Position numbers and translations under genes: made by a program
Shown here: positions 50,399 through 53,170 of the stretch, piece after piece
Numbering within the stretch: position 1 is the stretch's first letter
Layout of the letters: each line of letters opens with the position of its first letter
Notes under the pieces: generated by a model
Told to the model about the DNA's origin: nothing
What the model saw: only the letters and a program-made list of their open reading frames with translations
The model's database searches: none
Source: an uncultured Bacilli bacterium
GTDB taxonomy: Bacteria > Bacillota_I > Bacilli_A > RF39 > UBA660
Assembly (NCBI GenBank): GCA_934168205.1
Contig: CAKPMX010000001.1
Location: 510,603-574,602, forward strand
DNA length: 64,000 bases
Direction of reading: 5' to 3'

Positions 50399-50827
50399 AT
50401 GTCAGTTTTTACAATTTTGGAGCGTTAACTTTAATGAGTGATTATAATGTAAATTGTAATGTTAAGTTTACACAAGTGATGTATGTCGAAGATTGTCAAA
50501 TAAGATAGACTTATTTTACAATGGATTTTCTCATAAAGACGAGTAATTAAAGTACTAGGTTTACAGTTGTATGTTCAATGGTGTTATGATAAAGGAATAA
50601 TAGAGTATAAGACTGATTAAGTAGCATCAAAAAATAACTGTCTAATTATGTAACATGCTTTAATATTTGTAAAATGGATGTTATAATAAAATTGAGGGAT
50701 CGAGTATGAGTGTATTAAGAAGTAACAATTTACCAATTGACAACTGCTGTAAAAATAAATACAGTCTATTTGTGTCTATAAAATAAAGGGACTAATATCC
50801 CTTTTTATTGTGTAATTAGGAGGTAAA
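50399..50827 (+). promoter_or_regulatory. long 5' leader ending in a terminator/attenuator (candidate riboswitch)
   Basis: About 430-nt non-coding leader; contains TTGACA at 50738; the final hairpin at 50785-50808 sits 6 nt before AGGAGG and the ATG of the prs-like gene. Confidence 0.35.
50785..50808 (+). terminator. attenuator-type intrinsic terminator immediately upstream of the RBS
   Basis: AAAGGGA-ctaata-TCCCTTT followed by TTATT. Confidence 0.55.
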
Positions 50828-51946
50828 ATGGAAGTAAAAGGAAAAAATCTACGTTTGATAGTAATGGATAACTTTGAAGAATTTGGTAGAAAGGTTGATG
50901 GTCATCTAAAATTAATGCGTCATATAGAGGATGAAAATGCTACATTTATAGTACCTGTAAAGATAACTAGATTTTCATCTGGAGAAGGTAAAGCTGAAAT
51001 AATGGATACTATAAGAGCACAAGACGTCTATATTTTAACTGATGTAATGAACTATGACTGTACTTATAAAATGCGTGGATTTATTAATCATAAAAGCCCA
51101 GATGATCATTATCAAGAATTAAAAAGAGTAATTTCAGCAATGGATGGAGCTGAGGAAAGTTTAAAGGTAATTATGCCTTTCTTATATGAAAGTCGCCAAC
51201 ATAAAAGAAAAGGTAGAGAATCAAAAGACTGTTCTGAAATGTTACATGAACTAGAATTTTCGGGAGTTGACTCATTTATAACATTTGATGCTCATGATCC
51301 AAGTATCAGAAACGCTCTACATACTTGTTCATTTGATAGTATTTACCCAACATATTCTATATTAAAAGAATTTATAGAAAATGAACAAATCGATTTTGAT
51401 AATTTATTAGTTGTAAGCCCAGATACCGGTGCTGTAGATAGAGCTGTTTACTATGCTGAAATGCTAGGAACAGATGTAGGTATTTATCATAAAAGAAGGG
51501 ATATGTCTAAAGTAGTTAATGGTAAGAACCCAATTGTTGCTCATGAGTACTTGGGAGCTCCAGTAGAAGGAAAAAATGTTATTGTTGTAGATGATATGAT
51601 TGCCTCTGGTCAATCAATACTAGAAGTTGCTGAACAACTTAAAAAACGAGGAGCCGAAAACATATATTTAATTGCGTCTTTTGCACTATTTAGTGATGGA
51701 GAAAAAAGTGTACAAGCATTTGATGAGGCTTATGAAAACGGAATATTTACAAGATGTTATACAAGTAATTTATGTTATATGCCGAAAGAAGTAGAAGAAA
51801 AAGGCTGGCTAAGAGTAGGAGATTGTTCAAAATATGTTGCTAAGCTAATTGATACTTTAAACAAGCATGAATCAATTAGCCCGTTGTTAGACAGTAAAGA
51901 AAAAATTCTAACTAAAGTAAGAGAGGCAAAAGAAAAAAATAATTAA
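50828..51946 (+). CDS. ribose-phosphate pyrophosphokinase (Prs)-family protein, divergent with a C-terminal extension
   Basis: 372 aa. Aligns along its length to PRPP synthetase: ITRFSSGEG vs VTRFSDGE; RQHKRKGRE vs ARQDRKARSRE; VSPDTGAVDRA vs VSPDHGGVTRA; VVDDMIASGQS vs LIDDIIDTAGT. About 55 extra residues at the C-terminus. Confidence 0.6.
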   Translation: MEVKGKNLRLIVMDNFEEFGRKVDGHLKLMRHIEDENATFIVPVKITRFSSGEGKAEIMDTIRAQDVYILTDVMNYDCTYKMRGFINHKSPDDHYQELKRVISAMDGAEESLKVIMPFLYESRQHKRKGRESKDCSEMLHELEFSGVDSFITFDAHDPSIRNALHTCSFDSIYPTYSILKEFIENEQIDFDNLLVVSPDTGAVDRAVYYAEMLGTDVGIYHKRRDMSKVVNGKNPIVAHEYLGAPVEGKNVIVVDDMIASGQSILEVAEQLKKRGAENIYLIASFALFSDGEKSVQAFDEAYENGIFTRCYTSNLCYMPKEVEEKGWLRVGDCSKYVAKLIDTLNKHESISPLLDSKEKILTKVREAKEKNN

Positions 51947-51979
51947 TTTGTGATATAATTATAATAGGAGGAATGATAT

Positions 51980-53170
51980 ATGAATAGAACAGTAGGAACT
52001 GTAGTAAGAGGAATAAGAACCCCTATAATTAAAGAAGGTGATGACTTAAAACAAATAGTTATTGATTCAGTATTAAATGCTAGTAAGCAAGAAAATTTCA
52101 AGTTCAATGACCGTGATATTATCGCTATAACAGAAGCGGTATTAGGAATTAGTACTGGAAATTATGCTACTATTGATAATATTGCTAAAGATGTAAAAAG
52201 TAAATTTAAAGGTAGTCATATTGGAATTGTATTTCCTATATTAAGTAGAAACCGTTTTGCAGTATGTTTAAAAGCTTTTGCTAGAGCAATGGATAAGATA
52301 ACTATGTTATTAAGCTACCCATCAGATGAGGTTGGAAATGATATTCTGGACAAGGAACGTTTAGAAGAATCTGGAATAAATCCATATTCTGATGTAATTA
52401 GTGAACAAGAGTACACTGAAAAGTTTGGCGATTTCAAACATATCTTTACTGGTGTAAACATGGTCGATTTTTATCGTGAAGTTGCTAAAAGTGAAAACTG
52501 TGAAATAGAATTTGTTTTTAGTAATAAACCAGAAGAGATTGTTAATTATACAAAAGAAGTCTTAGCATGTGATATCCATACTAGATTTCAAACTAAGAAA
52601 AAATTAGAAAAGGCTGGTTGCCAAACTGTTCTTGGAATGGACGATATTTTAACTACTAGTGTTGATGGCTCTGGATATAATAGTAAATATGGTCTTTTAG
52701 GTTCTAATAGAGCAACAGAAGACAAAGTAAAATTATTTCCAGAAGCTGGTGAAAAACTAGTTTATGATATTCAAGAAGAGTTAAAGAAGATTACTGGTAA
52801 AACGATAGAAGTAATGATCTATGGCGATGGAGCTTTCAAAGACCCAGTCGGAAAAATTTGGGAATTAGCTGATCCGGTAGTTAGTCCATTCTATACAAAA
52901 GGATTAGAAGGTAGTCCTAATGAATTAAAATTAAAGTATTTATCTGATAATAAGTACAGTAATTTAAAAGGGGAAGAACTACAAGCTGCTATAAGAAAAG
53001 AAATAGAAGAAAAAGATAAGAATTTAAAAGGAAAAATAGAAACACAAGGAACTACTCCAAGAAGATATACAGACTTAATTGGATCATTATGTGATTTAAC
53101 ATCTGGTTCTGGAGATAAAGGAACACCAGTAGTATTTATTCAAGGATATTTTACAAATTACGCAGACTAA
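51980..53170 (+). CDS. CofE-like (F420-0:gamma-glutamyl ligase family, PF01996-type) protein with a large insertion
   Basis: 396 aa. N-terminus GIRTPIIKEGDDLKQIVID...DIIAITEAVLG parallels CofE GLPLIKEGDDLAELI...GDVLVV; the C-terminal GTPVVFIQGY parallels GIPAVVVRGL. Confidence 0.45.
   Translation: MNRTVGTVVRGIRTPIIKEGDDLKQIVIDSVLNASKQENFKFNDRDIIAITEAVLGISTGNYATIDNIAKDVKSKFKGSHIGIVFPILSRNRFAVCLKAFARAMDKITMLLSYPSDEVGNDILDKERLEESGINPYSDVISEQEYTEKFGDFKHIFTGVNMVDFYREVAKSENCEIEFVFSNKPEEIVNYTKEVLACDIHTRFQTKKKLEKAGCQTVLGMDDILTTSVDGSGYNSKYGLLGSNRATEDKVKLFPEAGEKLVYDIQEELKKITGKTIEVMIYGDGAFKDPVGKIWELADPVVSPFYTKGLEGSPNELKLKYLSDNKYSNLKGEELQAAIRKEIEEKDKNLKGKIETQGTTPRRYTDLIGSLCDLTSGSGDKGTPVVFIQGYFTNYAD

What the first reader, a model, noticed from the sequence alone, without database searches (positions are those of the whole stretch)
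50399..53170. Riboswitch-like attenuator leader controlling a divergent PRPP-synthetase-like enzyme and a CofE-like ligase
A 430-nt leader ends in a GGGA...TCCC hairpin plus U-run only 6 nt before the RBS, the classic expression-platform layout. The two-gene operon encodes a Prs-family phosphoribosyl pyrophosphokinase homologue with a 55-aa C-terminal extension, and a 396-aa protein whose N- and C-termini match the CofE F420-0:gamma-glutamyl ligase fold around a large insertion. Spo0A-bearing Firmicutes do not make F420. A ribose-phosphate activating enzyme plus a GTP-dependent amino-acid ligase under ligand control suggests an undescribed nucleotide or cofactor-derived small-molecule pathway.
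Basis: partly seen in the sequence, partly recalled or inferred. Interest (0 to 1): 0.7.

Follow-up and report, generated by a model that had tools for sequence, protein, structure and literature searches.

The report
Leader-ORF attenuator before a PRPP synthase gene
The supposed 430-base riboswitch is a roughly 134-base structured leader, holding a tiny translated reading frame and a terminator, that probably throttles a PRPP synthase gene in a few uncultured gut bacteria; the neighbouring CofE-like gene looks like an incidental passenger, not a pathway partner.

Summary
The hairpin with a T-run (50785-50804) and both genes are real.

- **Leader length.** Only the last ~134 nt before the first gene are conserved. 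They follow a TG-extended -10 promoter (50679-50687).
- **Leader layout.** Eleven diverged relatives (Prs identity 71-100%) share one layout: Shine-Dalgarno (SD) site, ATG, a 23-35 codon upstream ORF with unconserved peptide sequence, a stop codon at the base of the terminator stem, then the gene's ribosome-binding site (RBS).
- **Leader structure.** A long helix (P1) pairs the uORF's SD and AUG with the uORF's 3' end. Compensatory changes occur in 18 of 25 pairs.
- **Not a known riboswitch.** Rfam has no match, there is no conserved unpaired core, and no antiterminator was found. Ribosome-mediated attenuation of the pyrE/pyrBI type fits best.
- **Gene 1.** It is an ordinary member of the NF005299 (PRK06827) PRPP synthetase subfamily. 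The "55-aa C-terminal extension" is about 18 aa.
- **Gene 2.** It is a PF01996 (CofE-fold) protein with an inserted α/β domain. It scores far below the CofE equivalog cutoffs.
- **Pairing.** It is absent in 78 of 80 other species and lost in four syntenic relatives, three of which keep the leader.

A shared novel pathway is therefore poorly supported.

The parts
50361..50392 (+). Intrinsic terminator of the upstream htrA-like gene. It marks the true end of the preceding transcription unit. The 50393-50628 stretch after it is a non-conserved spacer, not leader.
   Evidence: 13-bp stem plus T-run; 50321-50628 has no similarity to relatives. Relatives carry either a SpaA gene or a much shorter spacer here.
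50660..50687 (+). Predicted promoter: -35 TTAATA, 16-nt spacer, TG-extended -10 (TGTTATAAT at 50679-50687). The predicted transcription start is near 50693-50695.
   Evidence: 10 of 12 matches, TG present. TGnTAnAAT is conserved at -148 to -165 from the prs ATG in all 11 leader variants. The start site itself is inferred, not shown.
50694..50699 (+). Shine-Dalgarno sequence GAGGGA of the upstream ORF, 6 nt before its ATG and at the extreme 5' end of the predicted RNA.
   Evidence: A purine-rich SD (GAGGGA, AGGAGA, GGGAGA or GGTGAGG) is present in the 16 nt preceding the uORF ATG in all 11 variants.
50706..50786 (+). Upstream ORF of 26 codons plus TAA (MSVLRSNNLPIDNCCKNKYSLFVSIK). The stop codon overlaps the first bases of the terminator stem.
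   Evidence: ORFs of 23-35 codons sit at the same place in 11 variants with unconserved peptide sequences. P(open | shuffle) is 0.03-0.13 for each, and the other frames hold 1-7 stops.
50697..50777 (+). Helix P1: the uORF's SD and start-codon region pairs with the 3' part of the uORF, enclosing the uORF body.
   Evidence: The MFE and centroid folds of all 11 variants show the same topology, with z-scores from -1.0 to -5.3. RNAalifold on 5 sequences recovers it. In 8 sequences 92% of cells are paired, and 14 of the 17 P1 pairs show compensatory changes.
50785..50809 (+). Intrinsic terminator (attenuator): stem 50785-50791 with 50798-50804, loop CTAATA, then a T-rich tail to 50809.
   Evidence: The hairpin is conserved in 11 variants with different stem sequences. 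In the 8-sequence alignment helix 3 is 100% paired and 4 of its 8 pairs change on both sides.
50818..50823 (+). RBS AGGAGG of the prs-like gene. There is no room for a separate promoter between the terminator and the RBS.
   Evidence: read directly from the sequence.
50828..51946 (+). PRPP synthetase of the NF005299 (PRK06827) subfamily, 372 aa.
   Evidence: 458 bits, cutoff 327. (PF13793, PF00156, PF14572). (alignment to solved Prs; RQ, DxH, KRR and DDxxxSGxS motifs retained).
51980..53170 (+). CofE-fold (PF01996) protein of 396 aa with an inserted α/β domain, at roughly residues 95-235. Its substrate is unknown. In this window it is predicted to be co-transcribed with prs.
   Evidence: 178 bits. 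(CofE equivalogs score only 32-36 bits against cutoffs of 181-274). (pLDDT 93; 2PHN, 2G9I and 7ULD at probability 1.0, target-normalised TM 0.51-0.53). (conserved motifs).
53172..53196 (.). Bidirectional terminator that ends the two-gene unit.

Best explanation
The feature is a ribosome-mediated transcription attenuator in front of a PRPP synthase gene.

**Proposed sequence of events**
1. Transcription starts about 7 nt after a TG-extended -10 box.
2. The RNA begins with the SD and AUG of a 26-codon upstream ORF (uORF).
3. The uORF's stop codon sits on the base of an intrinsic terminator, 41 nt ahead of the prs-like start codon.
4. If a ribosome loads on the nascent RNA and follows RNA polymerase closely, it is sitting on the stop codon when the terminator's 5' arm emerges. 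It covers that arm, the hairpin cannot form, and polymerase reads into prs-like and, in this genome, the CofE-like gene.
5. If no ribosome has loaded in time, the 3' end of the uORF pairs with the SD and AUG (helix P1). That locks translation out, the terminator folds, and transcription stops.

**What is likely sensed (inferred)**
The relative pace of RNA polymerase and the first ribosome. That means the NTP supply and/or translational capacity. The logic matches E. coli pyrE and pyrBI: low nucleotides slow the polymerase, coupling becomes tight, and more PRPP synthase is made.

**Shown versus inferred**
- Shown: conservation of the promoter, SD, ATG, open frame, stop position, P1 and terminator.
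- Inferred: translation of the uORF, the start site, the direction of regulation and the signal.

**The CofE-like gene**
It is a widespread ligase of unknown substrate that has come to lie behind prs in this clade. It is not a demonstrated pathway partner.
For: **Shared layout**
- Eleven variants with 71-100% Prs identity, whose leaders are only 50-72% identical, share one layout. It runs: extended -10, SD, ATG, 23-35 codon ORF, stop ending -7 to +5 nt from the base of the terminator stem (one variant reads through it), T-run, SD, prs ATG.

**Evidence that the ORF is maintained**
- Each ORF is open with shuffle probability 0.03-0.13, while the other frames carry 1-7 stops.
- The frame survives indels (L090, L093).
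- Peptide sequences are not conserved, as expected when the act of translation is what matters.

**Evidence for structure**
- P1 and the terminator are predicted in all 11 variants, with z-scores down to -5.3.
- Covariation: 92% of cells paired against 76% in shuffles and 46-57% in slid controls. Compensatory changes occur in 18 of 25 pairs against 8.9 +/- 2.0.
- Models built from subsets find held-out leaders at the right place: L093, L103 and L101 and L100.

**The leader goes with prs, not with the CofE-like gene**
- The leader is present in L096, L098 and L103, which lack the CofE-like gene.

**No separate promoter is possible**
- Only 13 nt separate the terminator stem from the RBS.

**Precedent**
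- In E. coli rph-pyrE, the distance of the stop codon from the attenuator loop sets pyrE expression (PMC2784333).
- Ribosome-mediated attenuators exist in Firmicutes, for example bmrCD (PMC4191407) and msrD (PMC10314930), both listed.
Against: - There is no experimental or transcript evidence. The start site, termination and uORF translation are all predictions.
- The uORF's own SD and AUG are buried in P1, an odd design if translation is the activating event.
- No antiterminator (region 2 with region 3) pairing beats shuffles, and no regulatory codons are conserved. It therefore does not fit the classical trp/his scheme.
- From my own knowledge: in B. subtilis RNA polymerase outruns ribosomes, which makes coupling-dependent attenuators less expected in Bacilli.
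- Stop codons are abundant in several frames in the A/T-rich run before the hairpin. The stop position alone is therefore weak evidence.
- The covariation alignment was fitted to the model, which favours the structure.
- The window's own leader has only z = -1.7.
- Three related lineages (L094, L105, L005) and L016 do without any such leader.
Confidence: 0.5

Rival explanations
1. The leader is a ligand- or protein-responsive RNA switch with no role for translation. P1 plus the terminator would be the OFF state. A metabolite (such as PRPP or a nucleotide) or an RNA-binding protein would remodel P1 to allow read-through, and the open frame would be incidental.
For: Helices are conserved with covariation, and a terminator sits directly before the RBS. 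The gene class, nucleotide precursor supply, is often under riboswitch or PyrR-type control (own knowledge). The SD region could also pair with the terminator's 3' arm at -3 to -9 kcal/mol.
Against: No Rfam hit appears at E <= 10 or at gathering threshold across the window and 13 other loci. The interior of P1 varies in length and sequence, with no conserved unpaired nucleotides. An SD, an ATG and an open frame are kept in all 11 variants, including across frameshifting indels. No antiterminator was found. The element is confined to one narrow clade.
Confidence: 0.15
2. The 5' element is a separate small gene with its own promoter and terminator, either a small RNA of about 115 nt or a 26-residue protein. 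The prs-like gene would be expressed only by constitutive leakage through that terminator. P1 would mainly protect the 5' end from RNases.
For: It is a complete unit of promoter, SD, ORF and terminator. The hairpin is terminator-like on both strands. From own knowledge, stem-loops within a few nucleotides of the 5' end stabilise Firmicute mRNAs.
Against: The peptide sequence is not conserved at all, which argues against a functional small protein. The unit is always immediately upstream of prs-like, with no intervening promoter space, and is absent elsewhere in the window and in 18 other loci. PADLOC was searched only with the Prs-like, CofE-like, metallophosphoesterase, helicase and AbiD proteins, not with the uORF peptide. 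The peptides are not hydrophobic, as read from the sequences.
Confidence: 0.15
3. A riboswitch would control a two-enzyme pathway in which the Prs-like enzyme activates a ribose phosphate and the CofE-like ligase adds amino acids, making an undescribed nucleotide- or cofactor-derived compound.
For: The two genes are adjacent, co-oriented and 3-41 nt apart in 8 lineages of this clade. They are near each other in L005 (3.5 kb) and divergent neighbours in L016. The CofE-like protein is far from true CofE, so its substrate is open.
Against: No Prs-like gene lies within 5 kb of the CofE-like gene in 78 of 80 species-level genomes. There its commonest neighbour is a divergent LysR regulator. Four syntenic relatives have prs-like but no CofE-like gene or remnant. 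Gene 1 passes the curated cutoff of a PRPP synthetase subfamily and keeps the Prs motifs. No riboswitch was found.
Confidence: 0.07

Closest known systems
E. coli rph-pyrE and pyrBI attenuators (UTP-sensitive, coupling-dependent transcription attenuation)
   Same: A translated ORF ends next to or over an intrinsic terminator just upstream of a nucleotide-metabolism gene. A closely following ribosome is thought to block the hairpin, and no antiterminator helix is needed. The distance from stop codon to attenuator is critical (PMC2784333; the rest is own knowledge).
   Different: Here the host is a Firmicute. The ORF is a dedicated uORF of 23-35 codons, and its SD and AUG are sequestered by a conserved long helix (P1). 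The controlled gene makes PRPP rather than consuming it. Nothing has been shown experimentally.
Firmicute ribosome-mediated attenuators of resistance genes (bmrB-bmrCD, msrDL-msrD, the tet(M) leader)
   Same: They have a short leader ORF plus an intrinsic terminator in a 5' UTR of a Gram-positive gene (PMC4191407, PMC10314930 and 10.1101/2021.03.24.436905, all listed).
   Different: Those respond to drug-stalled ribosomes, and at least bmrCD and msrD use alternative antiterminator structures (own knowledge). Here no antiterminator was found, and the target is a housekeeping-type biosynthetic gene.
Classical leader-peptide attenuators (trpL, hisL, pheL, thrL)
   Same: The order is uORF, then terminator, then structural genes. 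A first hairpin involves uORF sequence.
   Different: There are no conserved regulatory codons. There is no region 2 with region 3 antiterminator. The first hairpin buries the uORF's own SD.
Riboswitches with terminator expression platforms (for example ykkC-subtype PRPP or ppGpp, purine, ZTP)
   Same: A structured 5' UTR ends in a terminator a few nucleotides before the RBS of a nucleotide-metabolism gene.
   Different: There is no Rfam match and no conserved ligand-binding core. The structured region is an open reading frame.
NF005299 / PRK06827 phosphoribosylpyrophosphate synthetase subfamily
   Same: The full-length match scores 458 bits against a cutoff of 327. Length and domain order are the same as in 120 listed homologues.
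   Different: Nothing notable. The protein is about 25% identical to class I Prs with solved structures.
CofE, F420-0:gamma-glutamyl ligase (A. fulgidus, 2PHN / 2G9I / 7ULD)
   Same: The PF01996 domain is matched end to end, and the fold matches at probability 1.0.
   Different: About 160 extra residues form an inserted α/β domain. The CofE equivalog HMMs score 32-36 bits against cutoffs of 181-274. No solved structure is detectable by sequence. No F420 genes are nearby.

Membership tests
Known riboswitch or cis-regulatory RNA family (Rfam) | Covariance-model match to a curated family | tested here: not met
   the best hits have E = 2.5-9.6 and lie far below gathering scores; nothing at gathering threshold in the whole window; nothing upstream of CofE-like genes in 13 other genomes.
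Metabolite riboswitch (generic) | Conserved aptamer with invariant unpaired nucleotides in junctions or loops | tested here: not met
   Helices are conserved. The interior of P1 varies in length and sequence. In the 11-sequence alignment, the invariant columns inside the leader body are limited to the uORF start codon and two dinucleotides.
Metabolite riboswitch (generic) | Expression platform with mutually exclusive terminator and antiterminator | tested here: inconclusive
   The terminator is present and conserved. Pairing of the upstream strand with the terminator's 5' arm is no better than shuffles. Pairing of the SD with the 3' arm is possible, but its significance was not tested.
Metabolite riboswitch (generic) | Direct ligand binding | not testable with these tools
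   This needs in-line probing or ITC.
Ribosome-mediated transcription attenuator | Short ORF with SD and start codon inside the leader | tested here: met
   present in 11 of 11 leader variants, each with shuffle probability 0.03-0.13.
Ribosome-mediated transcription attenuator | Intrinsic terminator between the uORF and the regulated gene | tested here: met
Ribosome-mediated transcription attenuator (pyrE/pyrBI type) | The uORF stop lies within a ribosome footprint of the terminator's 5' arm, or the ORF overlaps the terminator | tested here: met
   the stop ends -7 to +5 nt from the stem base in 10 variants. In L090 the ORF runs through the hairpin.
Ribosome-mediated transcription attenuator (trp/his type) | Conserved regulatory codons and a region 2 with region 3 antiterminator | tested here: not met
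   The peptides share no conserved residues. The antiterminator duplex is no better than shuffles.
Ribosome-mediated transcription attenuator | Read-through depends on uORF translation | not testable with these tools
   This needs reporter genetics or Term-seq.
PRPP synthetase, NF005299 (PRK06827) subfamily | HMM score above the curated cutoff over the full length | tested here: met
   457.9 bits against a cutoff of 327, residues 4-366 on model positions 5-380 of 383.
PRPP synthetase | Catalytic and binding motifs: RQ of the ATP site, DxH, the KRR flexible loop, and the DD-x3-(S/T)G-x-(S/T) ribose-5-phosphate loop | tested here: met
   The alignment to 3DAH shows SRQ at 111-113, DAHD, HKRRD and VVDDMIASGQS. 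The assignment of roles to these motifs rests on my own knowledge of Prs structures.
PRPP synthetase | Enzymatic formation of PRPP | not testable with these tools
   This needs an enzyme assay.
CofE (F420-0:L-glutamate ligase equivalog) | PF01996 domain and CofE fold | tested here: met
   (178 bits). (2PHN at probability 1.0).
CofE (F420-0:L-glutamate ligase equivalog) | Score above the equivalog cutoff (TIGR01916, NF009809) | tested here: not met
   32.5 against 180.65 and 36.3 against 274. Only residues 14-70 match.
CofE (F420-0:L-glutamate ligase equivalog) | Genomic association with other F420 biosynthesis genes | tested here: not met
   The recurrent neighbours within 5 kb in 80 genomes are LysR, ABC ATPases, two-component systems and guaA. 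No other recurrent neighbour family emerged in the neighbour clustering; the neighbours were not screened specifically for F420 genes. Whole genomes were not examined.

The most novel reading that the evidence does not exclude
The leader could be a new class of self-gating attenuator. Helix P1 would close over the uORF's SD and AUG about 80 nt after they are made, giving the ribosome a timed window to load. The read-through decision would then report the ratio of polymerase speed to initiation rate (NTP pool versus ribosome availability), without any antiterminator, regulatory codon or ligand. If so, it would be direct evidence for functionally coupled transcription and translation in a Bacilli lineage. 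A less likely but still open reading is that, in this clade, PRPP made by gene 1 feeds a product tailored by the CofE-like ligase.
Probability: 0.3. Interest if true: 0.55.

Novelty: new variant of a known kind. Interest (0 to 1): 0.38.

Why it matters
PRPP synthase sits at the entry to nucleotide, histidine, tryptophan and NAD synthesis. From my own knowledge, cis-acting RNA control of prs genes is essentially undescribed.

A conserved uORF-plus-terminator leader with a self-sequestering SD would add a compact design to the attenuator repertoire, one with no antiterminator. It would also give a concrete test case for whether transcription-translation coupling is used for regulation in Firmicutes.

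The negative result matters too. The striking-looking Prs/CofE-like operon is a local juxtaposition. The widespread long CofE-like family remains an enzyme of unknown substrate, and it is better studied in genomes where it stands alone next to a LysR regulator.

Tried and rejected
**Known RNA families**
- Rfam at E <= 10 on the leader, and at gathering threshold on the whole window and on 13 loci from named species, gave nothing relevant.

**Structure of the claimed leader**
- Folding the full 432-nt 'leader' gave z = +0.61, so the long-leader idea was dropped.
- A MAFFT alignment of all 11 leaders with RNAalifold recovered only part of the terminator, because the sequence alignment is unreliable at 50-72% identity. 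It was replaced by per-sequence folds and CM-guided alignment.

**Collecting relatives**
- A metagenome DNA-pattern scan anchored in the prs 5' coding region returned only two near-identical contigs. Graded relatives were fetched one protein at a time instead.

**Alternative mechanisms**
- A classical antiterminator (uORF 3' strand with the terminator's 5' arm) was no better than shuffles.
- The internal promoter-like site TTGACA-17-TACAGT (50737-50765) is not conserved in the other variants, so it was treated as chance.
- A remnant of the SpaA gene in the 50321-50700 spacer: none.
- Remnants of the CofE-like gene in relatives that lack it: none.

**Other copies of the element**
- None were significant in the window or in 18 loci. 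A scan for other terminator-then-RBS arrangements in the window found only three, each about 50 nt from the start codon.

**Defence role**
- For the Prs-like protein PADLOC gave only generic 17-22 bit PRTase-loop hits. For the CofE-like protein it gave nothing.

**RiPP or small-toxin reading of the uORF**
- Rejected, because the peptides are neither conserved nor hydrophobic.

**Literature**
- There were no papers on PRK06827, on a Prs/CofE-like pairing, or on the long CofE-like family in Firmicutes.

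
Full report
**1. What is in the sequence**

The region holds two co-oriented ORFs, 50828-51946 (372 aa) and 51980-53170 (396 aa). They are separated by 33 nt.

Terminator-like hairpins lie at 50361-50392, 50785-50804 and 53172-53196. The first follows the upstream htrA-like gene, and none lies between the two ORFs. The region has 6 such sites against 1.0 +/- 1.0 in shuffles.

The 50785-50804 hairpin (AAAGGGA / TCCCTTT) is followed by a T-rich tail and lies 13 nt before the AGGAGG RBS at 50818-50823.

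**2. The 430-nt leader is not real**

- The 432-nt stretch folds no better than shuffles (z = +0.61).
- Rfam finds nothing at E <= 10 or at gathering threshold anywhere in the window.
- In close relatives from human-gut metagenomes, the space between htrA and prs holds one of three things: a 519-aa SpaA-domain gene on the other strand, a 45-nt spacer, or unrelated sequence.
- Similarity to the window begins only near 50629.
- A TG-extended -10 box (TGTTATAAT, 50679-50687) is conserved at -148 to -165 from the prs start in every relative that has the leader. The predicted 5' UTR is therefore about 134 nt, starting near 50694. That start site is an inference.

**3. Anatomy of the true leader**

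I collected eleven distinct variants: window, L092, L090, L001, L093, L086, L096, L098, L100, L101 and L103. Their Prs identity to the window ranges from 100% down to 71%, and their leader ORF regions are only 50-72% identical.

All share the same order:
- extended -10 box;
- six bases later, a purine-rich SD (GAGGGA or AGGAGA);
- an ATG in the next few bases;
- an ORF of 23-35 codons;
- a stop codon whose end lies -7 to +5 nt from the base of a terminator stem (in L090 the ORF runs through the hairpin);
- a T-run;
- the SD and start codon of prs.

In the window the uORF is 50706-50786 and encodes MSVLRSNNLPIDNCCKNKYSLFVSIK.

The peptides share no conserved residues, yet the frame is always open:
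- Per-sequence shuffles give P(open) = 0.03-0.13, while the other two frames hold 1-7 stops.
- The frame survives frameshifting indels relative to conserved nucleotides in L090 and L093.
- The variants are not independent. Even counting six of them as independent puts the joint probability below about 1e-6.

**4. Conserved RNA structure**

Folding each predicted leader alone gives the same topology in all eleven. The SD and AUG region of the uORF pairs with the 3' part of the uORF, forming helix P1 (50697-50777 in the window). The terminator follows.

The z-scores against dinucleotide shuffles are -1.7 (window), -4.85, -4.31, -2.76, -1.0, -3.0, -4.95, -3.67, -3.73, -4.65 and -5.3.

- RNAalifold on the five most alignable sequences recovers 17 P1 pairs and 8 terminator pairs.
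- A covariance model built from those five finds L093, L103 and L101 at exactly the expected place and full length, with E = 0.003-0.3.
- A second model finds the held-out L100 with E about 1e-3.
- L096 and L098 are hit at the right coordinates, but only at noise level.

On the 8-sequence model-guided alignment:

| Measure | Observed | Column shuffles | 3' partner slid |
|---|---|---|---|
| Cells forming standard pairs | 92.3% | 75.8 +/- 1.9% | 46-57% |
| Pairs with changes on both sides (of 25) | 18 | 8.9 +/- 2.0 | 3-6 |

One caveat: that alignment was fitted to the model, which favours the structure. The independent single-sequence folds argue that the structure is nevertheless real.

There is a conserved structure, but it is short and it doubles as a reading frame.

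**5. Why I do not call it a riboswitch**

- It matches no known family.
- The interior of P1 varies in length and sequence, with no invariant unpaired core.
- The structured region is a maintained ORF with its own SD.
- Pairing between the strand upstream of the hairpin and the terminator's 5' arm is no better than shuffles, so no antiterminator exists for a ligand to stabilise.
- The element is confined to one clade. Relatives at 76% (L094), 69% (L105), 64% (L005) and 50% (L016) Prs identity have short, plain 5' UTRs.

**6. Most likely mechanism**

The layout is that of coupling-dependent attenuators such as E. coli rph-pyrE and pyrBI. In those, a ribosome reaching the end of an ORF beside the attenuator hairpin prevents termination.

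- For pyrE, the distance between the stop codon and the attenuator loop is known to set expression (PMC2784333, read).
- Ribosome-mediated attenuators also exist in Firmicutes, for example bmrCD (PMC4191407) and msrD (PMC10314930), both listed.

I propose the following:
1. A ribosome that loads early and follows the polymerase masks the terminator's 5' arm while it sits on the stop codon.
2. Without timely loading, P1 closes over the SD and AUG, the terminator folds, and transcription ends.

The probable signal is the relative pace of polymerase and ribosome, meaning the NTP supply or translational capacity. That would suit a gene that makes the nucleotide precursor PRPP.

All functional steps here are inferred. 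Three points are unresolved and recorded in the notebook: the burial of the uORF's SD in P1, the lack of an antiterminator, and the reported uncoupling of transcription and translation in B. subtilis (own knowledge).

**7. Gene 1**

- It scores 457.9 bits against a cutoff of 327 on NF005299 (PRK06827, 'phosphoribosylpyrophosphate synthetase'), across the whole model.
- Its 120 listed homologues are all 299-397 aa, mostly 357-375, with the same three Pfam domains.
- Solved class I Prs structures align to residues about 25-354. The RQ, DxH, KRR and DD...SG.S motifs are retained.
- The claimed 55-aa C-terminal extension is therefore about 18 aa.

**8. Gene 2**

- PF01996 matches end to end at 178 bits, with about 160 inserted residues.
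- The CofE equivalog models score 32-36 bits against cutoffs of 181-274.
- No solved structure is detectable by sequence.
- An AlphaFold model built from 26 diverse homologues (pLDDT 93.2, pTM 0.89) matches A. fulgidus CofE (2PHN, 2G9I, 7ULD) at Foldseek probability 1.0 and target-normalised TM of 0.51-0.53. The weaker hits are Rossmann-like α/β folds, which I attribute to the insertion.
- The family is large and strongly conserved:
  - 285 cluster representatives have E <= 1e-30;
  - identity is about 60% across Clostridia, Bacilli and spirochaetes;
  - motifs such as SRNRF, DEVGN, YGDGAFKDP..IWELADP, GTTPR and SGSGDKGTP are shared.
- Its substrate is unknown, and I found no literature on it.

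**9. Is the pair a pathway?**

- Among 80 species-level genomes with the CofE-like gene, only two have a Prs-like gene within 5 kb. In L005 it lies 3.5 kb away, and in L016 it is a divergent neighbour.
- The commonest neighbour is a divergently transcribed LysR regulator (15 loci). guaA follows in 5 loci.
- Within the window's own syntenic block (phospholipase C - AbiD - HtrA - prs), the CofE-like gene follows prs in eight lineages.
- It is absent, without remnants, in L094, L096, L098 and L103. Three of those four keep the leader.
- PADLOC gives only generic PRTase-loop hits for gene 1 and nothing for gene 2.

The pairing is thus clade-specific and dispensable. In this window the CofE-like gene is predicted to be co-transcribed with prs, but a dedicated joint pathway is poorly supported. 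I put its probability at about 0.07.

**10. Verdict**

What is there:
- a previously uncatalogued, clade-restricted attenuator of about 115 nt carrying a uORF, in front of an ordinary PRK06827-type PRPP synthase gene;
- a widespread CofE-fold enzyme of unknown function carried along in the same transcript.

Novelty is 'new variant of a known kind' (ribosome-mediated attenuation). Interest is moderate at 0.38.

Noticed in passing
window 53200-57860, and the same position in L001, L002, L086-L092, L098: The DNA just downstream of the CofE-like gene is a hypervariable defence hot spot. The window carries a truncated Amidase_3 (53608-54000), a metallophosphoesterase (54095-55021) and a 905-aa SF1 helicase that matches the PADLOC candidate PDC-S53 end to end at 1039 bits (55143-57860). 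At the same place relatives carry Pycsar-like cyclase plus PycTM (L002), Cas9 (L090), an OLD/AAA_15 protein (L092), an MmeI-type methylase (L087), a reverse transcriptase (L098) or an HATPase_c_3 protein (L001).
   Followed up: partly
window 48265-49227: An AbiD-type abortive-infection gene (PADLOC 199.6 bits, Pfam Abi_2) lies in conserved synteny with the phospholipase C, HtrA and prs genes across the whole clade. Its 3' end overlaps the htrA-like start (49208) by 20 nt. That is unusual stability for a defence gene.
   Followed up: no
window 50321-50628; L001 3036-4595; L086 55-1617; L100 724-2259: The spacer between htrA and the prs promoter is an indel site. Some relatives hold a 511-520 aa SpaA-domain surface-protein gene there on the minus strand. 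Others have 45-280 nt of unrelated sequence. No SpaA remnant is present in the window.
   Followed up: yes
L090 245-352 and L091 (same sequence): In this variant a 2-nt deletion in an A-run shifts the uORF frame. The uORF then reads through the terminator hairpin and stops just before the prs RBS (35 codons). The surrounding nucleotide sequence stays close to the window's.
   Followed up: partly
L009, L025, L026, L032, L038 (C. difficile), L047, L060, L061, L067, L070, L073-L075; also L040, L050, L056, L077, L081: Outside the window's clade the CofE-like gene is usually monocistronic. Family 1, a LysR-type regulator, occurs in 15 loci: in 13 (those listed above) it lies immediately upstream and divergent, and in L017 and L076 it lies elsewhere in the locus. 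In five loci guaA (GMP synthase) follows directly. These are the only recurrent functional hints for this family.
   Followed up: partly
L007, L010, L016, L017 (labelled Muribaculaceae); L023, L066 (labelled Methanobrevibacter): MAGs labelled as Bacteroidota or as archaea carry this Firmicute-type CofE-like gene at 63-68% identity, on contigs with Bacilli-like neighbours. These are probably mis-binned contigs in the public assemblies.
   Followed up: no
window 50694-50699 versus 50786-50791, and the equivalent positions in all variants: The uORF's SD region and the terminator's 5' arm are near-duplicates in each variant (GAGGGAU and AAGGGAC; AGGAGAU and AGGAAGAU). The SD could therefore also pair with the terminator's 3' arm at -3 to -9 kcal/mol. 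Whether this 1:4 pairing matters was not tested against controls.
   Followed up: partly
model R2: With default filters the second covariance model failed to report two of its own seed sequences (the window leader and L103). L103 was recovered with filters off (64.7 bits); the window leader was not re-searched with R2. This is a tool behaviour to keep in mind when reading negative CM searches.
   Followed up: yes
window 53172-53251: Two adjacent hairpins follow the CofE-like gene: a bidirectional 10-bp terminator (53172-53196) and a 15-bp minus-strand terminator-like hairpin (53218-53251). The second would end a minus-strand transcript for which I saw no ORF.
   Followed up: no
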